64,000 bases of DNA from Plasmodiophora brassicae (GCA_036867785.1 CP145410.1:1178001-1242000); one strand, 5' to 3'. Positions 46,491 to 56,330 are shown, numbered from the stretch's first letter. Program-made: numbers and translations. The notes: generated by a model from the letters alone, not told the origin.

Positions 46491-48042
46491 ATGAAGCAGT
46501 GCTTCTACGAGGTCCTGTGCGTACCTCGCGATGCCTCCGATGCCGACCTGCGCAAGGCGTATCGTCGACTCGCCCTGGAGTGGCACCCTGACAAGGTCGG
46601 GCGCATATCGGCCAGTTTGTCCGCGCCGTCACGGTGACCGTCCATTGCAGAACCTACACCGACAGGATGAAGCGGAGGCGCGGTTTAAGCTGATCCAGGA
46701 AGCGTTCGAAACGCTGAGCGACCCTGACGAACGAGCGTTCTACGATGGGCATCGCGACCATATCCTGAACGATCAGATGGGCGCTGATGTCGATGATCGG
46801 TCCGCGCGCGATCCTTTGATCGACCTGGCTGTCTACTTCAGTGCAGCCTGTTTTGATGGGTTCACTGATAAGGAAGGCGGGTTCTTTGACGTATTCACAC
46901 GTGCGTTCGAACGCATTGACGAGCTGGAATCTGGGAATGGATCCCGGAATCCGTACCCGAAGTTCGGGCGTACCGACTCGCCTTGGTCGGATGTCAACGA
47001 GTTCTATCGCGAGTGGGGCAATTTCTCCACTGGGCGGAGCTTCACGTGGGCCAACCAGTGGAGGACGTCTGACGCAGGGGAGCGCCGGACGAAGAGGTTT
47101 GCACTTGGGCTGAAACGTGCAGGGCTTCGTTTTGAGAACCGCGTTTGTTGCAGGGCCATGGAGAAGGAGAATCGTACGCATCAGAACAAGGCTCGTCGTC
47201 AGTACGTCGATACGGTCAACCGATTGGTTACATGGGTGCGCAAGAAGGATCCACGTGTTGCCTCTCATCAGGAGGAGGTGCGACGTCAGACGCGGGCAAA
47301 GGAAGCCGAACTGAAGGAACGTGAAGAACGCCGGAGACAACGGTATGAAGAAGATCGACAGCGATGGAGAACGTTGGAGCAGCAACGAATCATCGAAGGC
47401 GAGCAGCGACGTCGAGAGGCGTACGGCGATATCGATGACGAAGAGCAGAACAGCGATGCGTCCGACGAATCCATTATCGAATGCGTCCCGTGTGGCAAAC
47501 AGTTTCGAAGCGCGAAGCAATTCGAGAACCACGAACGATCCAAGAAGCATAAGCAGAATGTCGCCGCTCTCAGGCACGAACTCGAGGCCGAGGACGCGCT
47601 TTTACAGCAGCTGAAGATTAACGATGAACTTGATGATGGCAGTCCGTCACCCGACGTTATTACGGTCGATATTGAACCGCTGGATGAGGACGAAACCGAG
47701 ATGCAGCCGACAGCGGTTCAGAAATCGAAACGAAAGAAGAAGAAAGGGCTGCGGGCTGCCAATTTCGGCCACGAAGAGGTTCCTGATGAGGAGCAAGCCG
47801 ATGACATTGTACGGCAGGGCGCCGTGGAACCCCCTGCTGATGAAGAAGCGCAAGACGTCACCAAGAAGTCGAAACAGCGTCGGAGACGTCGAGATAAAGC
47901 GTCTGACCCGTCTGGCGCCGCTCCGCCAACGCCCGATCCGTCTATGCCGTTCTCGTGCGAAAGGTGCCACGCAGGGTTCCCTTCGAAGACTCGGCTCTTC
48001 ACTCACCTGAACCAGCATCCATCCCACAAATCGCTCAAGTAA
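46491..48042 (+). CDS. DNAJC21: DnaJ C21/Jjj1 (J domain, zuotin-like region, two C2H2 fingers)
   Basis: MKQCFYEVL...[30 protein letters not shown]...[26 protein letters not shown]. Confidence 0.92.
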
Positions 48043-48168
48043 GTAAAATTATATATTCAATCGGATGGCGCTGCTATTCATCTGGTTGCGAAATGCACGG
48101 TTAGATCAAGCCGGGTACCAAGGGCGCCCATCAAGGCCGCTATGTAGCGATTCGTAATTAAGGCTCGG

Positions 48169-49889
48169 ATGGCACCGATCCCCGTATGGGTGGACGACGA
48201 CGTGTCCGGCAACGCGCGTGACGAATGTGTCCACGTTTGCATTCGTGTTCGACCCTCGTCTGCACCTGGCAGCTGCGTTCGCGTCCGTCATGGCCAGGAA
48301 ATCCAACTGCTCGGCGATGGCATCGCACTGCCCGGCTCCCCTGTCCATGGCGAATCGGCGCCCCTTGTCGAGAATGAGAAGCACCTGTTCACGTTCGATT
48401 CTGTTCTCGATGAGGCAACAACACAGGTTGGAACGGGGACCGTTTTCTTGGGCTGCCGAAGGCTGACGCGCGCCGCCCTTCCCAGGAGGAGGTCTACGAA
48501 CGAACCTGTCGCTCCATTATTGACAAATTCTTTGACGGATACAACACGAGCGTGCTCGTCTACGGGCAGACTGGATCAGGTAGGGTTATGCGTCCCCCTT
48601 GGTGCAGGACTGCCACGTATAGTTACCCGCCAGCCCACAGGGAAAACGTTCACGGTAACTGGAGCCGGTCGCGATCGTCACCCGGGCATAGCGTACAGGG
48701 CGGCCCAGCACGTGGAGCAATGGCTAACCCGGCCCGACGCGTCCCAGTTCGAGACCGTGGTGCTTGTCAGCCTGATGGAGATCTACAACGACACGCTGAT
48801 CGACCTTCTGTCGGAGTCGCCGACCATCGCCAAAGACAAGGACGCCGCGGTAAGCGTCTTGCCTCTGCACGTCGATGACCGTGACGAGCCGTCTTAGGGC
48901 AAGCTTCGCATCCGGGAGGATCCCGTCCTGGGCGTATTCGTCAACGGTTTGACCCGGGTGCCAGTCGAGACCAGCAGCGACATCGTCGCCCTGATCGAAA
49001 AGGGCAGCACTAGACGTCACATCGCAGCCACGTCCATGAACGAGTTCAGTTCGAGGTCGCACTCGGTCCTGACTATAACGATCCATCAACGGCACCTGTG
49101 CGAATTTGGGCAAGGACGAATGTGAACTCTGTCGCCTGATGGACCCCCGTTCGACAGAGACGATGAGGAGGGATTCCAGGCGAAACGCTCCGAGCTCAAC
49201 ATCGTCGACCTAGCTGGGTCTGAGAGGCAATCAGGTAATATGGCGCCTATTGGGCAAACGGAGGCCAGTGCCATGACCGGTCCCATGGCCCTCTAGCCAC
49301 GAAGGCGACGGGTCACCGACTTCGAGAAGGAGCCAAGATCAATGCATCGCTCAGTGCGCTGGGGTTGGTGATCAAGGTGTGCTGCGTGCGTCTGTGCCAT
49401 TCCATCTGGACCGACTGACGTGGCGACAGAACCTGGTGGAAGGAAGCACTCACGTGCCGTTCCGAAACTCGGCGCTGACCAGGCTGCTTCAAAATAGGTC
49501 GGCGACGGTCCCGTCTGTAATCCTGTCGGACGAACACGCTACTGACAGGGTCTACCAGCTTGGGCGGCAACGCCCGCACGCTGCTGATCGCCTGCATCAG
49601 CCCAACGGCGTCGTGCGTGTCGGAATCGCTGAGCACGTTACGGTTCGCGGCGCGCGCCAAGCTGATCCAGAACCGGCCCCGGGTCTACGCCGACCCGAAG
49701 ATGGCCCGAATCGCCCAGGTCGGCCACGTGTGCCTCGTCCCCCCGCCTGCTCGCCCTAAGCCTGACCGACACACGCAGCTGGAATCCGAACTGGCCCTAG
49801 CACGATCGCAGCTGGAGGCCTGTCGATGTCGCGATGATGCGCCTTATCGCGTCGCACCTGCCGGGGACGCCTGCTGCACGATCATGTGA
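48169..49889 (+). CDS. Short kinesin (motor domain, short tail, CaaX box), multi-exon
   Basis: [52 protein letters not shown]; ends CCTIM*. Confidence 0.92.
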
Positions 49890-49997: not shown

Positions 49998-51319
49998 CTA
50001 CGGGAACGACGTCTTGATCGCCGGGGCGCTCGATCGTCGGCGGGCGCGCCTCTGCAGCTGTGCCGTCTTCCGGTACCTGGTCGGCAGGCGGAACGCGCCC
50101 GCGAACCTGTCCAGGGCGCCCGACCGCAGGAACCGGTCGGCGAACACCGCCTGCAGGCGGGCGTTCAGGTCGGATTCGACCTCCTGGAACAGGGTGACGG
50201 GCACCCGCGGGTTGTCTTCGTCGATGGCGTCGGCCCGCGCCGCCAGCGCCTGACGGGACGCCGCCGAGACGGCGTCGCCGACCGGGCTGGGCGCGTTCTC
50301 GGCCAGGAACTTGCTGTTGATGCTGACGAGCGCCCTGTACCGCGACGGTTGCGACGTCCCGTTCCGGAAGTCGCGAATCGCCCGCAGGCATTGCAGGTGG
50401 ACGGCCTCGCCGATCTCGGTCAGGTAATCCATGAGGAACGCGGCCGCCCGTTCATCGGCGAGGAACGACTGTCGGGCACGCGTCAGCCTCCCGAACCCGC
50501 TACCTGGCGTCGCAGTGCCCTTCACCTGCAGGTCAGGCCGGTCGATCATGGCGTCGTAGCGGTCGGCGTGATGGGACTCGCAGAGCCCTGCCGGCCGAAA
50601 CACGTCGTCAGCGGCGACGCTCAGCGCGTAGTACACGCACGGTGTCGCCCGGCAGGATACGGCCGCCTGTGCCGGCGCGATCTCGACATGGGCCATGATC
50701 CTCTGCAGGGTGTCGGCCAGGGCGACGCGTTGTGGGCGCAGGTCGGCCCGGTTCAGGACCGCGTCGACGAACGCCTGATCCGACAGCTGCTTCGTCACGT
50801 TCTGCAACTTCTTGACGTTGTCGGGTTTCATGTGCCGGCTGACGATCGGGTTGGCGACGGCGAAGGCGCGGTTCATGGCGGCGACAAGGAACTGCGGGTC
50901 GGCGCCCAGATCGGGGTTCTCCAGCGACCGGTGCGCCTGCACCAGCAGCGCCTGAAGCGGCTCCGTCGCCTCCGACGTGTTCTCGGGCGTCAGCAGCTTC
51001 TCGTTCAGCATGATGCCGACCTTGAGGACCAGCTTGACCATGTCCTGTTTCAGCTGCTTGCCCTGCGTCTCCCCAAACACGATCTTGGCGGAATCTGCTG
51101 CATGCGTCAGCCGAGGTCGTGTATCCCGAGACAGTCGTTAGGCGTGCGACCTTTAATGGCGTTGAAGATCGCCTCGCCATCGTCACCGAGGACGCCCAGG
51201 ATCGCCTTGCGCCCGAGCTTGGTGCCCGCTGTGGCCGACCCCATGAACTTCATGGCACGAGCAAACCCGCCCTGCTTGCTGGGCATCGGCTGCTCGGCGT
51301 CCGCCTCATCGTCCGACAT
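49998..51319 (-). CDS. TNFAIP8/TIPE-like domain + Cys/His motif + RGS domain protein
   Basis: TIPE-like KQDMVKLVLKVGIML and IVSRHMKPDNVKKLQNV..LSDQAFVDAVL; RGS-like FLMDYL..HLQCLRAIRDF..INSKFLAENAPSPV..LFQEV..DRFLRS; two introns. Confidence 0.75.
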
Positions 51320-51370
51320 ACTTCTACAAGGATGACACTAGCTGTTAACAGATCGCCCGTACTCCATCGA

Positions 51371-51817
51371 CCCTATGTACTGAACCTGGGGGACACTCTA
51401 TGGGGGTTCTGAAACCAGTCAACGCTGTGTGTCACCTGCCGTTGTCATCCGAGGGAACCGTTCCTATCTCAATCGTGCCAAGCAGCAGCTGGTGCTGGGA
51501 TCGCACCGGCCAAGCACGGATCCTGGTGCGTCTGCTGAGGCGTCCAGGACGCCTCACGTGATCATTTCTGCACTGTCGCCGCAGCGAGGGGCAGCGCTGA
51601 CGCCAACGCCAACCTGGGCGGCTCCTCCATGGTCGTCGTGCATCGCGTACACAGAGCAAGGGCCGCCTTGGCCGGCTGCACGACTACAAGTGCCGGGCGA
51701 TCACTTGAGGCTTTCAAGGGCGCGCCTGCGGAAGCATACCAGGATGGGTGGTCAATCAAGCCGCATGGTGCCATCTGCTGCAGACCTGCGAACCGCATCG
51801 GGCATGTAGGGGGTTTT
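51371..51817 (+). ncRNA. Candidate structured non-coding RNA (rod 51482-51781), identity unknown
   Basis: Several nested complementary blocks share one axis; G.U-compatible differences on the + strand; T4 run at 51814-51817. Confidence 0.45.
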
Positions 51818-51901
51818 AAAGACCGGCGCTGGTGTCGTATTCAGTGCTCGTGCCTGCGTTTGTTATGGCGTGTGGATCGGCGGGTACGTAGACGCGCGTT
51901 A

Positions 51902-53275
51902 ATGGAGCGCGACGTTCCGCCGGTGTCGTTTGGGCTGTCGGCGCGCGTGTTCCTGTATCCGGTGAAAGGCCTTGCCGATGGCCGCGAAGCGAACCGCGAC
52001 GCCATCCGGCAACGCGTCGAGTCCTACATGAAATGCGTCGTCGGGCTCGGGTTCACACCTGCCGATGTCTTCTCATCGTACGAGCGATTGTTACCGGTTA
52101 GCCTGGTCCATGCTGACGTGCGCTCGCCCGTCCAGAGGAGAGGCGATCCCTCGGCAGGTCGCCGAGGTGATCTACAGTCAGATGACCGAGGTCTACGGCA
52201 GGCAGTGCCAATTGCATCGTCGATGGCAGGCGATAGGATCCGACCCGATGCAGATGCTGTCGGAGGTCCTGCATAAGTCGTCCGGCGTTGACCGGTCCAT
52301 CTGCCTGGTCGGCCACCCGCCCTTCCTCAAGACCGTCTACACGAACCTGAAGAAACTCGACAACAAGTACGTCGAGAAGGACGCGACCGGCCAAGAGTTC
52401 GAGGACGACCTCGATCCGGCCATGGCGATGCACCCGGAAGCCGTCCTGGAGATCTCCGTCCTGAACAGCGTCACCACACGATTCCAGCGGTGCTTCGTCG
52501 AGCACCAGTTCACGTACACGAGGAAGCATCGGCACAAGATGTACGCACGGCGACGTCCGGCCACTGTCCCTGCTGTGTTCTGACACGTGTCCCGGGCAGC
52601 TTGACGATCGTCCTGATTCCGACCGGGGTGGCGAGCGACCGCAACCCGATGCAACTGACGGATCACTCGGAGACCTGCCTGCGAGGCCTGCTCAGGAAGC
52701 CACTCGGTCTCACCCCGGGATCGGGTGCCTCCGCCTTCCTCGCTGACAGCAGCGTCCCCGGGCGCCTCTCCGTTGCATTCCTGTTAGAGGTACCCCATTC
52801 GCAATGGTGCGAAGGCCCCTTGCAACCAGTTGGTGACGAGATGAACGACATTGGCAGAATACGACGGCCGCCTTTCTGCCCATCTTCATATCGCAACGGG
52901 TTCGGAACCGCCCATGCCATGCAACGGGATTGCCTGCGAAGTAACGCCCGCCGTTCAGAACCCACAGAAGGTTGTGCGCGCGATCGCCTCGCAGCCGGCA
53001 GGGACGCGCACGTTCCTGATGGCGCCCGTGGCCATCCTGAAGGAGGTTGCCCAACTGCTGCTGGGCGTCGACAGGTTCGTTCCGGGGGCCGCGTTTCGAT
53101 CCCGCCCGACGTGCGCCTGACACACACGCCCCAACGCGACAGCACCGCATCGGACAGCATCGAGCAGAACGTCGTTATCGTGTTGCAGCACAGCGTCCCT
53201 GCCGCCTCGTACGAAACGTTCGAGATCGCCACCAAGTGCATCGACACGATGCTGACGGCAGTCAGCGCCAAATAG
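51902..53275 (+). CDS. Hypothetical protein, possibly tandem degenerate histidine-phosphatase-like folds, multi-exon
   Basis: Chain of coding exons with GT-AG introns; SICLVGHPPFL resembles a SixA-type segment. Confidence 0.6.
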
Positions 53276-53342: not shown

Positions 53343-53891
53343 TCATGAAGCGTTGGGTTTCCAGGCGGGCGCCCCCTCGTTGTAGTGTTCCTGCTTGAAG
53401 ATGGGCGCCGTCGTCTTCATGTGGTCGATCGCGAACTCGACCGCGCGCAGGGCGTCCCGTCGGTGCGGGGCGCTGACGGCCATCCGGACGGATGCCTCGC
53501 CGACCGGCACGAACCCGACGCGATGCTCAATACCGATGCGATGCACGGACGGCCAGCGCGCCCGAATCGCATCGCACGTCTCGTGGAATTGCTTCACGGC
53601 CATCCGCTCGTAGGCGTCGTACGTCAGGCCGACGACGCGCCTGCCGTCGCGCTCGACATCCGCCCGGGCCACGCCGACGAACGTCGCAATCGCGCCGATC
53701 GCCTCCAGGCGCACGGCGCGCTCGACGACGTCGCCATGAAGCGCGTGCGGGCGCAGCCAGACACTGGACAGCCGCGGGCACTCGTCGACCGGGTCGCACC
53801 GGTTCCCGCACGAGCATCGCGTCGATGCGAGCGCCGGCGACTTGTCGGCAGCACCCGGCGGCGCCGTAACCGCCGCACCGCCGCTCATCAT
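53343..53891 (-). CDS. MOCS2: Molybdopterin synthase catalytic subunit (MoaE)
   Basis: GAIATFVGVAR, LTYDAYERMA, HRVGFVPVGEASV, SAPHRRDA, APIFKQEHY. Confidence 0.92.
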   Translation of the reverse strand: MMSGGAAVTAPPGAADKSPALASTRCSCGNRCDPVDECPRLSSVWLRPHALHGDVVERAVRLEAIGAIATFVGVARADVERDGRRVVGLTYDAYERMAVKQFHETCDAIRARWPSVHRIGIEHRVGFVPVGEASVRMAVSAPHRRDALRAVEFAIDHMKTTAPIFKQEHYNEGAPAWKPNAS

Positions 53892-54069
53892 CTCCGCGCC
53901 ACTTTCGACTGAAGCGTCGCGTGCTCGTCTCTCGTGGTGGACCGGACGGGCGCCCCCGCCTGACGATGCCGATGCCGAACGAGGTGGAGGAGCGGCGGGT
54001 GACTCACCGCCAACGTGGTGGTCGGCCCAGGAGTCAACGCGCGCCCGCTCCAAAGTCGAGCGGCGACGA

Positions 54070-54381: not shown

Positions 54382-54519
54382 CGTTATACATACAAGGAAC
54401 CCCATGCGCTCGTACGTGATAGCAGGCTCGCGCACAGGTACCCGTTGCACGTCTTGCCGCAGGGGCGTCGCGCATGCGGATCATCGTCGTGCGTCGCGAA
54501 GGTGCGCGGCGCAGTCGGC

Positions 54520-56330
54520 ATGGGCGGCGCGGCACGTCCCGAGGAGGTCCGTTGATTGTGGAGGGCAAGGGAGAGCATGCCACCAGCGGTACTGACGCGC
54601 GCGTCGTGCAGAGGGGCTGGCAGTGGTACTACGTGGACGATGACGGCCAGTGCCAAGGGCCGCACACGCACGACGACATGGCGGACTGGTTTGCGGTCGG
54701 CTGGCTGCGGCCGGACCTGCTCGTGCGCCCATCGCATAGGACCGTGTTCAAGCCGCTGAACGCGTTGAAACCGGTGCCCGAGTTCTGCCGGCCGCAGCAG
54801 CGGAAACCGCCTCCGGCGCGTTCGCCGCCACCCCCGCCACCAGCGCCCGAACCGGTCGAAACGCCCGAGTGGATGTACCTCGATGAGAACGGTACGTAGG
54901 GGGCAGTCGTTGGGCCATCATTGCCGCGTGCCTTACGGGAATCGCCCAGGTGAGGAGCAGGGTCCGTTTCCGATGGCGATGATGGGCGCCTGGTTTGTCT
55001 CTGGGCACTTTGACGAGAACGTCATGGTCCGTCCCATGAATGAACAGGTAACCGCTCGACGTGCAACTCTGTCGATGAACGCGCTTACCTGGGCTGACCA
55101 GGGGTTCCAACTGCTGAGTATTCATGCGGACGCGTTCAGACGAGCGGCCGCCGAAGTTGTCCCTCAAATGAAGCACGAGTTCCATGTCGATGATCAGCGT
55201 CTTGATGACGAAAGGGTAACGTTTGCATCCTGTTTACTGCCTATTTGGCGTCTTATGCTGTCGTGCCGGCAGGAAGAAGATACCAGCGATGGGCAGGAGG
55301 TCGCCTTGTGGATGTATCTCGACGACAGCGGCGAGAAGCAAGGGCCATTCACAGGGACACAGATGCTCGCGTGGTATAATGCCGGTTTCCTGGACGGCAG
55401 CGTCCGTGTTCGCAGGAAGGCATCGCCGGATGAAACATTCTTCCCCATTGGGGACGATGCCGAGGCCCTGTTTACGGCGACTGTCGAGGAAGGTCTCGAA
55501 GAGACGGAAAAGCCATCCGATGAGGCTGCTGCTGTCGTCCGAGAGGGACCGGACACTAAATGGTTCTACATTGACGATTTGGGCATTGAGCAAGGTCCTT
55601 ACCCCGCTGCTCACATGCGCTCATGGTACGACCGCGGGTTTCTCAAGCCAGGTACGACGCCGTGCGCGTTTAGCGCTTGCCTACCCACGGTCTCATTCGT
55701 ATGCTGTCAGCTGTACGAATCCGTACGAGCGACGAGACGGAATACACGGTGTTCGGCAACCGCGTCCCGTGTCCACAGTTTGCCGCCCATCGTCCACCTC
55801 CTCCTGTCGTTGTAGCGCCGCCCGTCATGGTCCCTTCAGAGAGCTGGTACTACATCGACGCGGAGGGTCACGAGCAAGGTCGGCATGGTGTGGTTTCGTT
55901 TGTTTCCGAGCTCATTGCCAGGGTTGGTCAGGTCCTTTCGCTACGGCAAGCATGCTCGCGTGGAAACGCCAAGCGCTCCTGCCGCCTGATCTACGTGTCC
56001 GATGTGCTGTTTCTGGATTCTATCAACCAATTGAATCCGTTGATGCGTTCAATGACCGGCCAGTCGCCAACGAAGACCTCGTGCAATTCGGTGGATTCCA
56101 GTCTCATGGCAGACGTTTCCGGGCGTCTGCTGCAAGGTCTGGCATTGGCTTCTGTCGCATTGGAAGGCCATCGGGGCTGACTGTGTCACCATAGTCACTG
56201 GCAAGACAAGGATCTTCCCGACGATTCCGCTGGACGGCAGATGGGCCATTACTTTGACGTCAACGCATGGCAAGAACAGCGGAACCAGCAGATGGCGGCC
56301 CAGCTCCAGAAGAAAAAGAAGAAGCGGTAA
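54520..56330 (+). CDS. Protein with five GYF domains and a basic C-terminus, multi-exon
   Basis: Five W-x-Y-x-D-x2-G-x2-QGP...M-x2-W units; ends GRQMGHYFDVNAWQ...KKKKKR. Confidence 0.88.

What the first reader, a model, noticed from the sequence alone, without database searches (positions are those of the whole stretch)
49998..51319. TIPE/TNFAIP8 domain fused to a Zn-like motif and an RGS domain
Seen: the N-terminal ~190 aa follow the TIPE helical pattern, then come CRATPC...GLCESHH and an RGS-like domain. Known: animal TIPE proteins are stand-alone phosphoinositide-binding/transfer proteins, and RGS domains are GAPs for G-alpha subunits. I recall that TNFAIP8 has been reported to interact with G-alpha(i). 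Inference: this Rosetta-stone fusion would couple lipid sensing to heterotrimeric G-protein shut-off in a non-animal lineage, perhaps in zoospore chemotaxis. I know of no description of this architecture.
Basis: partly seen in the sequence, partly recalled or inferred. Interest (0 to 1): 0.72.

Follow-up and report, generated by a model that had tools for sequence, protein, structure and literature searches.

The report
TIPE–zinc finger–pseudo-RGS protein family
This real, spliced gene of the clubroot parasite joins a lipid-holding TIPE domain to a zinc finger and an RGS-shaped domain that has lost the residues normally used to switch G proteins off, so it more likely carries G proteins on and off membranes than inactivates them; many related protist proteins share the design.

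Summary
Confirmed as one three-exon gene (402 aa) of Plasmodiophora brassicae. TIPE and RGS folds are both supported by Pfam, PDB profiles and an AlphaFold model. It is not a one-off: 74 of 139 scanned proteins hit both families, with named members in Rhizaria and stramenopiles. The Cys/His motif is conserved (58 of 143 hits; shuffles 0.07) and weakly resembles A20-type zinc fingers. (1) The RGS domain lacks the canonical G-alpha contacts: 71 of 95 family members keep none of five, whereas 44 of 50 other P. brassicae RGS domains keep three or more. A GAP role is therefore unlikely. (2) The pairing is not unrecorded: '/DUF758//RGS/' is a row label in a 2014 supplementary figure, though not discussed in that paper's text. 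The closest functional model is Dictyostelium Gip1, a TIPE-fold protein that holds the G-gamma lipid anchor. Best reading (0.45): a Gip1-like G-protein solubilisation factor with a non-catalytic RGS dock. Nothing functional is shown. The scan's earlier notes held no TIPE finding on other DNA.

The parts
51151..51319 (-). Coding exon 1 (residues 1-56 plus one base); acidic N-terminus and basic helix alpha0 of the TIPE domain
   Evidence: ATG 51319 with an in-frame stop 22 codons upstream in the spliced leader; homolog P0006 residues 6-51 match this exon at E 6.5e-11
51095..51150 (-). Intron 1, 56 nt, GT..AG, phase 1
   Evidence: Joint 51094/51151 in contigs of 3 of 4 runs; retained in a contig of run X9
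50526..51094 (-). Coding exon 2 (residues 57-246): rest of the TIPE domain, the zinc finger and its helix
   Evidence: homolog match 49-238 at E 5.8e-37
50685..51268 (-). TIPE/TNFAIP8 domain (about residues 18-193, interrupted by intron 1)
   Evidence: Pfam PF05527 44.5 bits; PDB profile hits TIPE3, Tnfaip8, Gip1; fold Z 16.5-19.9
50568..50654 (-). Cys3-His finger C204-x4-C209-x18-C228-x2-H231-H232, probably zinc-binding, weakly A20-like in fold
   Evidence: Conserved in 58 of 143 hits; top three fold matches are A20-type fingers, Z 3.6-4.0, rmsd 1.6-1.9 over 33-35 residues
50469..50525 (-). Intron 2, 57 nt, in frame without a stop; spliced or retained (402 vs 421 aa)
   Evidence: Joint 50468/50526 in contigs of 2 of 4 runs (58 letters on the short side in X9, 27 in X6); read through in X8 contig 50177-51096; the homolog alignment breaks here
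49998..50468 (-). Coding exon 3 (residues 247-402 and stop): most of the RGS-fold domain (residues 243-372, ending at 50091) and a basic tail
   Evidence: Pfam PF00615 25.0 bits on the spliced protein; fold Z 14.6 to RGS8; canonical contacts missing
51324..51385 (-). 5' UTR intron, 62 nt, ending 4 nt before the ATG
   Evidence: Joint in 2 of 4 runs; GT..AG
51726..51785 (-). Second upstream minus-strand intron, 60 nt, on the same contigs (long 5' leader)
   Evidence: Joint in 3 of 4 runs; GT..AG at the +1 cut

Best explanation
A soluble, single-copy factor that carries lipid-anchored heterotrimeric G proteins, working like Dictyostelium Gip1. Proposed cycle: the basic helix alpha0 docks the protein on anionic membranes; the TIPE cavity takes in a G-protein lipid anchor (G-gamma prenyl and/or G-alpha acyl chain) in exchange for a phospholipid; the finger and the RGS-fold domain, which follow the last TIPE helix where Gip1 has its specificity tail, give a protein-protein contact that selects or times the cargo. 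The RGS fold is a non-catalytic dock, not a GAP. SHOWN: gene structure, both folds (in a predicted model), the conserved finger, loss of the canonical GAP contacts, homology to Gip1. INFERRED: lipid binding, the identity of the cargo, any contact with G proteins, zinc binding, and any role in chemotaxis.
For: The family profile hits Gip1 (5z1n) at E 5.7e-15, about as well as mouse Tnfaip8 (2.3e-15). The model superposes on Gip1 at Z 17.3, rmsd 2.3 over 159 residues. Gip1's TIPE-like region binds the geranylgeranyl group of G-gamma and sequesters heterotrimers, and its C-terminal tail adds specificity (PMC6219514: abstract, introduction, passages and discussion read). Mouse Tnfaip8 co-precipitates with G-alpha-i3 in a lipid-dependent way (PMC5524748). 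The fusion partner is a G-protein-related fold kept in 93 of 105 proteins of 300 aa or more by family-derived profiles (partly circular, as the profiles came from 40 of them). Gip1 cavity residues V190, L211 and I166 align to V82, L103 and S58 (read by hand); many TIPE columns are at least 90% hydrophobic. alpha0 is basic: K24 in 85 of 93, K/R29 in 74 of 97. The genome has 85 G-alpha exon matches, a G-beta gene and 82 RGS matches, but one TIPE match. No hydrophobic stretch long enough for a membrane helix (best 19-residue mean 1.1).
Against: No binding or activity was measured. Gip1's essential D208 and its partner R212 align to T100 and Q104 and are not conserved in the family. The PH domain that Gip1 needs for release is absent. 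TIPE3 and TIPE2 score higher in fold than Gip1 (Z 19.9, 19.2 vs 17.3). In the TIPE-domain tree the RGS-bearing proteins do not group with the three PH-TIPE proteins, and Gip1 itself was not in the tree. RGS-fold domains without GAP activity can be scaffolds unrelated to G-alpha (PMC3971589 passage; Axin and SNX13 are among the fold matches). The finger is missing in 35 of 74 two-domain proteins, so it is not needed for the core function. P. brassicae itself has A at the conserved basic position 29.
Confidence: 0.45

Rival explanations
1. A TIPE2/TIPE3-like phosphoinositide-binding or transfer protein (or a GDI-like holder of prenylated Rac/Rho) whose RGS fold is a scaffold for partners other than heterotrimeric G proteins.
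For: Best fold and profile matches are animal TIPE3 and TIPE2. The alpha0 lysines that TNFAIP8 uses for phosphoinositide binding (human K17, K22; preprint 10.1101/2021.03.26.437243, passages) align to the conserved K24 and K29 columns. The canonical G-alpha contacts are lost.
Against: The TNFAIP8 cavity-entrance triad H86/R87/K103 aligns to L86/N87/T100, and these columns are variable, with D most common at 87 (37 of 105). It does not explain why an RGS fold is kept across two SAR lineages.
Confidence: 0.28
2. One reading: a lipid-sensing GAP, in which TIPE recruits an active RGS domain to membranes to switch off a G-alpha. It would need a non-canonical interface or a divergent G-alpha partner.
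For: RGS Pfam score above cut-off and RGS fold intact. P. brassicae has many divergent G-alpha genes. P0003 itself keeps R358 at the R167 column. An Asn lies within one residue of the N88 column in 33 of 95 family members. The family conserves its own basic surface (R/K at 289, 292, 299 in 61, 62, 83 of 95).
Against: N128, one of three critical RGS4 contacts (N88, N128, D163; PMC8252600 passage), is kept in 7 of 95 against 45 of 50 control domains. Alignment-free motifs [EQ][VIL]N[LIV] and [DN][ST]x.RF occur in 0 of 95. No family member keeps more than two of five contacts.
Confidence: 0.13
3. An effector or ubiquitin-linked sorting adaptor: the RGS fold binds activated G-alpha without hydrolysis (as the GRK2 RH domain does; recalled), and the A20-like finger reads ubiquitin to route the cargo.
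For: The top three, and 6 of 22, fold matches of the isolated finger model are A20-type fingers, four of them solved bound to ubiquitin. GRK RH domains are among the profile and fold matches.
Against: Finger Z-scores are 4.0 or less, within the range of common arrangements. The loop is longer and the fourth ligand is His. The aromatic pair after the second Cys that A20 fingers use for ubiquitin (recalled) is not seen in the alignment. The finger is absent in 35 of 74 two-domain proteins.
Confidence: 0.12
4. Artefact: two adjacent genes merged by annotation, or chance domain matches.
For: No single spliced contig spans the whole coding sequence, and the runs are only guessed to be RNA.
Against: One open frame crosses both domains. 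A spliced joint links the finger exon to the RGS exon. Dozens of independent homologs align over the full length.
Confidence: 0.01

Closest known systems
Dictyostelium discoideum Gip1 (PDB 5Z1N/5Z39; PMC6219514, PMC8369479)
   Same: TIPE-fold domain (profile E 5.7e-15; Z 17.3, rmsd 2.3 over 159) fused to a second signalling module in a protist with heterotrimeric G proteins; aligned cavity positions are hydrophobic or small.
   Different: Gip1 has an N-terminal PH domain; this protein has a C-terminal finger and RGS fold. D208/R212 are not conserved. G-protein binding is shown for Gip1 and not here.
Animal TNFAIP8/TIPE1-3 (Pfam PF05527; PDB 4Q9V, 5JXD, 3F4M, 8GYN)
   Same: Pfam above cut-off; same seven-helix fold (Z 17.9-19.9); basic alpha0; K81 shared (100 of 105).
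   Different: The solved animal proteins are stand-alone domains. The entrance triad H86/R87/K103 is not conserved. About 15% identity in the structural alignments.
Canonical RGS GAPs (RGS4, RGS8, RGS16, RGS18; Pfam PF00615)
   Same: RGS fold (Z 14.6, rmsd 1.9 over 129 to RGS8) and hydrophobic core.
   Different: Switch-contact residues are absent across the family; a different basic surface (R289, R292, K299) and F355 are conserved instead.
Non-GAP RGS-homology domains (Axin, GRK2/5, SNX13)
   Same: RGS fold used, by inference here, as a docking module; all are among the profile or fold matches.
   Different: No closer match than the canonical RGS proteins; different partner domains; no shared binding surface was tested.
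'/DUF758//RGS/' row in the supplementary RGS-architecture figure of de Mendoza et al. 2014 (PMC3971589)
   Different: A heat-map label only. The taxa are not readable from the extracted text, and the main text does not mention it. No finger, residue analysis or function appears in the text I could read.
A20-type zinc fingers (ZNF216, A20 ZnF4/7, Rabex-5)
   Same: Top fold matches of the isolated finger model (Z 3.6-4.0, rmsd 1.6-1.9 over 33-35 residues); two Cys, a loop, then C-x2-ligand into a helix.
   Different: Fourth ligand His (Cys in 2 of 60); longer loop (mostly 16 residues, 18 here); weak scores.

Membership tests
TNFAIP8/TIPE family (PF05527) | Pfam score above gathering cut-off | tested here: met
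   44.5 bits vs 22.5
TNFAIP8/TIPE family (PF05527) | alpha0-alpha6 cylinder fold | tested here: met
   Predicted model vs TIPE3 Z 19.9, TIPE2 Z 19.2, rmsd 2.5 over 150
TNFAIP8/TIPE family (PF05527) | Central hydrophobic cavity | tested here: inconclusive
   Aligned columns are hydrophobic; cavity volume was not measured
TNFAIP8/TIPE family (PF05527) | Basic alpha0 helix | tested here: met
   5 K/R and no D/E in residues 18-40; K24 in 85 of 93; position 29 is Ala in this protein
TNFAIP8/TIPE family (PF05527) | Basic cavity-entrance triad of TNFAIP8 (H86, R87, K103) | tested here: not met
   L86, N87, T100; columns variable. A feature of TNFAIP8 itself; Gip1 has an acidic entrance
TNFAIP8/TIPE family (PF05527) | Phospholipid binding or transfer | not testable with these tools
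   Needs biochemistry
Gip1 (G-protein solubilisation factor) | TIPE-like G-protein-binding fold | tested here: met
   E 5.7e-15; Z 17.3
Gip1 (G-protein solubilisation factor) | N-terminal PH domain | tested here: not met
   TIPE starts at about residue 18; no PH hit
Gip1 (G-protein solubilisation factor) | D208-R212 network at the cavity entrance | tested here: not met
   Aligns to T100/Q104, not conserved
Gip1 (G-protein solubilisation factor) | Binds geranylgeranylated G-gamma and sequesters heterotrimer | not testable with these tools
   Needs pull-down or complementation
Canonical RGS GAP | Pfam PF00615 above cut-off and RGS fold | tested here: met
   25.0 vs 23.9 bits; Z 14.6
Canonical RGS GAP | Switch contacts N88, N128, D163 (PMC8252600) and E87, R167 (recalled) | tested here: not met
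   P0003 has V269, H270, G310, V354, R358; family 2, 2, 7, 8, 7 of 95 for E87, N88, N128, D163, R167; controls 47, 24, 45, 15, 45 of 50
Canonical RGS GAP | Accelerates G-alpha GTP hydrolysis | not testable with these tools
   Needs assay
A20-type zinc finger | A20 fold | tested here: inconclusive
   Top three matches, but Z 4.0 or less
A20-type zinc finger | Four Cys ligands with an 11-residue loop (recalled pattern) | tested here: not met
   Cys3-His; loop 12-24, mode 16 in 41 of 58; Cys at position 231 in 2 of 60
A20-type zinc finger | Zinc and ubiquitin binding | not testable with these tools
   Needs ICP-MS and binding assays

The most novel reading that the evidence does not exclude
An old SAR family of heterotrimeric G-protein 'GDI-like' carriers in which a pseudo-RGS domain recognises the G protein while the TIPE cavity hides its lipid anchor. 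With Gip1 (PH-TIPE) and the animal TNFAIP8-G-alpha-i link, this would mean that carrying G proteins is the ancestral job of the TIPE fold, and that a catalytically dead RGS can serve as a cargo-selection module.
Probability: 0.3. Interest if true: 0.8.

Novelty: new variant of a known kind. Interest (0 to 1): 0.58.

Why it matters
Papers on Gip1 leave open whether TIPE proteins in general shuttle heterotrimeric G proteins and how the heterotrimer is recognised (PMC8369479, PMC6219514). A conserved TIPE-RGS fusion in a third eukaryotic lineage is independent guilt-by-association for that idea and gives a single-chain object on which to test it. The family-wide loss of GAP contacts, against a clean in-genome control, suggests a distinct class of non-catalytic RGS domain. 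It is also the only TIPE match in a crop parasite with a much expanded G-protein system. Interest is tempered because RGS domains shuffle freely in protists, the two-domain pairing was already listed in a 2014 supplement, and no function is shown.

Tried and rejected
Complex prediction of P0003 residues 18-393 with the most canonical P. brassicae G-alpha and Zn gave no answer (score 0.00). The G-alpha chain was one exon without the P-loop and the alignments were not used, so it says nothing either way. A Pfam G-gamma search of the genome found nothing, and nothing rang in the controls either: uninformative, so whether a prenylated G-gamma exists here is open. The run search listed no holder on record as RNA; I relied on spliced joints instead. 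phmmer of the single exon-2/3 frame against PDB found nothing; only the family profile did. The isolated finger gave no PDB sequence match, no Foldseek match, no usable Atlas hit and only weak Pfam hits (EsV_1_7_cys and Zf_WRKY19, 2 of 18 members each). The Atlas search with the whole frame gave RGS clusters under 0.9 only. Word-indexed homolog searches were nearly blind to this family (2, 4 and 3 hits). An N-terminal extension through the upstream exons was rejected: an in-frame stop lies 22 codons before the ATG. The first G-alpha alignment misplaced N-terminal exons and was dropped. The gene identifier was not found in the supplements of PMC4471660 (3 files) or PMC8595600 (1 file), so no stage-specific expression is available. 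The tree does not resolve gain or loss of the finger (9 changes among finger/no-finger rows; 49 of 123 inner branches open).

Full report
Gene and organism. The window encodes a minus-strand gene from ATG 51319 to a stop ending at 49998. A near-identical database protein is named Plasmodiophora brassicae PBRA_003780 (P0003, 402 aa); another record (P0004, 421 aa) is identical to the window read with intron 2 retained. Contigs of four public runs, chosen from 24 listed and only guessed to be RNA, show GT..AG joints at 51095-51150 (3 of 4 runs), 50469-50525 (2 of 4) and two upstream introns (2 of 4 and 3 of 4). Retained forms also occur: intron 1 in a contig of X9, intron 2 in X8. No single spliced contig spans the whole coding sequence. 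A homolog at 41% identity matches the genome in exactly three pieces that break at the two introns, and nowhere else. The 402-aa form is therefore the likely product, and the refutation 'two separate genes' is not met.

Domains. Pfam gives TNFAIP8 44.5 bits and RGS 25.0 bits on the spliced protein, both above cut-off. A profile of 40 homologs, hand-picked for full length and the Cys motif, hits TIPE3 (E 2.8e-17), Tnfaip8 (2.3e-15), Dictyostelium Gip1 (5.7e-15) and RGS18 (4.1e-13). The AlphaFold2 model of P0003 (pLDDT 91, pTM 0.61, so the relative placing of domains is unsure) matches TIPE3, TIPE2, TIPE1, Tnfaip8 and Gip1 at Z 16.5-19.9 over residues 14-195, and RGS8 at Z 14.6, rmsd 1.9 over 129 residues.

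A family, not a one-off. phmmer over 1.84 billion representatives returned 144 proteins at E 0.001 or better. Pfam was run on P0003 and 138 of the 143 non-self hits: 74 of 139 hit both families at E 0.01 and 62 pass both cut-offs (tallied by hand). Family-derived profiles find both domains in 93 of 105 proteins of 300 aa or more (partly circular). Most shorter hits look like fragments, but some are stand-alone TIPE or PH-TIPE proteins. Of 20 hits looked up, four carry a taxon name: Leptophrys vorax (Rhizaria, Endomyxa; finger present), Platysulcus tardus (stramenopile; finger present), Chrysophaeum taylorii (pelagophyte; no finger) (lineages) and a record labelled Durusdinium. In a quick tree of 126 TIPE domains, P0003 lies in a clade of 8 with Leptophrys (SH-aLRT 95), as vertical descent would give. 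All RGS-bearing rows fall on one side of a branch with support 85, under the starred level, and no animal TIPE or Gip1 was in the tree. One origin in SAR fits but is not shown; the range rests on four names.

The finger. C-x4-C-x(8-30)-C-x3-H occurs in 58 of 143 hits against a shuffle mean of 0.07. 39 of the 74 two-domain proteins have it; most of the other 35 have a helical-looking linker in its place, and two have a variant spacing. Position 231 is His in 56 and Cys in 2 of 60, a swap that points to H231 as fourth metal ligand (inference). A model of the finger alone (pLDDT 82) has A20-type zinc fingers as its top three matches among 48,161 chains (Z 4.0, 3.8, 3.6; rmsd 1.6-1.9 over 33-35 residues) and 6 of 22 rows in all. 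These scores are low, so this is a lead only.

The RGS domain is probably not a GAP. N88, N128 and D163 are the critical RGS4 contacts (PMC8252600, passage); E87 and R167 are added from recall. In a joint alignment, 95 family domains (10 of 105 dropped for having under 85 residues in the region) keep E87, N88, N128, D163, R167 in 2, 2, 7, 8 and 7 cases; 71 keep none and none keeps more than two. The 30 best-scoring other RGS matches of this genome keep them in 28, 16, 28, 11 and 27, and 20 weaker ones (29.7-46.1 bits, hand-picked for near-full coverage from 82 matches) in 19, 8, 17, 4 and 18; 44 of these 50 keep three or more. Alignment-free motifs agree (0 of 95 for two of three motifs, 2 of 95 for the third). 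Against this reading: an Asn lies within one residue of the N88 column in 33 of 95; P0003 keeps R358; D163 is poorly kept in the controls too; and the weak controls still score above P0003's own 25 bits. The family conserves a different, basic face: R/K at 289, 292 and 299 in 61, 62 and 83 of 95.

The TIPE domain and Gip1. Gip1 is a PH-TIPE protein whose cavity takes the geranylgeranyl group of G-gamma and keeps heterotrimers in the cytosol; its C-terminal tail adds specificity (PMC6219514: abstract, introduction, first results, passages and discussion; PMC8369479: passages). Mouse Tnfaip8 binds PE and co-precipitates with G-alpha-i3 (PMC5524748: abstract and results sections). Reading the profile alignments by hand, Gip1 V190, L211 and I166 fall on V82, L103 and S58, but D208 and R212 fall on T100 and Q104. 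The TNFAIP8 entrance triad falls on L86, N87, T100, and the alpha0 lysines (preprint 10.1101/2021.03.26.437243, passages) fall on the conserved K24 and K29 columns. So the carrier scaffold and the basic membrane-facing helix are kept, while the entrance residues match neither model and the cargo cannot be read from sequence. The finger and RGS fold start right after helix alpha6, where Gip1's tail lies.

Context. The genome has one TNFAIP8 match, 82 RGS matches (this one second weakest), 85 G-alpha exon matches and a G-beta gene. The neighbours I looked at (a kinesin-like gene ending near 49889 and a divergent gene from 51902) give no clue. A review reports that a GPCR-pathway inhibitor reduced clubroot symptoms (PMC9180986, passages; primary paper not seen).

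Mechanism. Best reading (0.45): a Gip1-like solubilisation factor for lipid-anchored G proteins with a non-catalytic RGS dock. Rivals: TIPE-like lipid transfer or Rho-GDI-like scaffold (0.28), non-canonical lipid-gated GAP (0.13), effector or ubiquitin adaptor (0.12), artefact (0.01). It is a member of the TIPE family and an RGS-fold protein. It is not a Gip1 by architecture and not a canonical RGS GAP by residues.

Prior art. Full-text searches for 'DUF758' (3 papers), 'TNFAIP8' + 'RGS domain' (1), 'TNFAIP8' + 'protist' (5), 'Plasmodiophora brassicae' + 'RGS' + 'G-protein' (1) and 'Gip1' + 'Dictyostelium' + 'TIPE' (4) showed, from listings and for three of the four Gip1 papers from passages, no description of the fusion. 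However, the supplementary figures of PMC3971589 list '/DUF758//RGS/' among RGS architectures; the heat-map cells are not readable, one supplementary file was not searched, and the main text never names DUF758. That paper stresses that RGS domains shuffle widely and that some lost GAP activity. Anantharaman et al. 2011 was not seen and may also list it. The scan's earlier notes had no look-alike sequence and no TIPE finding.

Verdict. A real, conserved and functionally undescribed variant of the TIPE/Gip1 kind. The finger, the family-wide loss of GAP contacts and the Gip1 link are the new points. Interest 0.58.

Noticed in passing
window 51324-51900 and beyond: The gene has a long minus-strand leader with two introns and six upstream ATGs; contigs run on past 51900 into the plus-strand gene that starts at 51902, so the two 5' ends may overlap head to head.
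   Followed up: partly
window 50469-50525 and 51095-51150: Both coding introns are seen retained in some contigs. Retaining intron 2 inserts 19 residues at the start of the RGS domain; retaining intron 1 gives a 70-aa stub (P0005).
   Followed up: partly
L034:1501-2442 (G000:C4:1442732-1443673): An intronless G-alpha-like frame with DVGGRR in place of DVGGQR and no Arg at the switch-I position before 'VVRSTGI'; both changes would be expected to impair GTP hydrolysis (recalled).
   Followed up: no
proteins P0084, P0137, P0152, P0153: PH-TIPE fusions with the Gip1 architecture, from unnamed sources.
   Followed up: partly
proteins P0048, P0060, P0068, P0069, P0109, P0113: Finger-less members with a short N-terminal helical module; weak Pfam hits to ARMET_C (P0109) and RNF34L-like_3rd (P0048), both under cut-off.
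   Followed up: no
protein P0096: Record labelled Durusdinium, but it groups (SH-aLRT 97) with unnamed finger-less proteins; it may come from a co-cultured organism.
   Followed up: no
G000, several contigs (for example C9:111314-115071, C2:708040-711878, C1:1108209-1112500): Tandem clusters of RGS-domain genes; at least 82 RGS matches in 25 Mb.
   Followed up: no
window 48148-49889 (+): Kinesin-like gene, convergent with the TIPE-RGS gene and ending about 110 bases from its stop; two of its introns are seen as joints. Family name from motifs, recalled.
   Followed up: no
window 54423-56180 (+): Several repeats of a 'W.Y.DD.G..QGP' motif, GYF-domain-like (recalled), in one gene.
   Followed up: no
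window 46495-48042 (+) and 53349-53912 (-): A DnaJ protein with C2H2 fingers and a molybdopterin synthase large-subunit-like frame (recalled from motifs).
   Followed up: no
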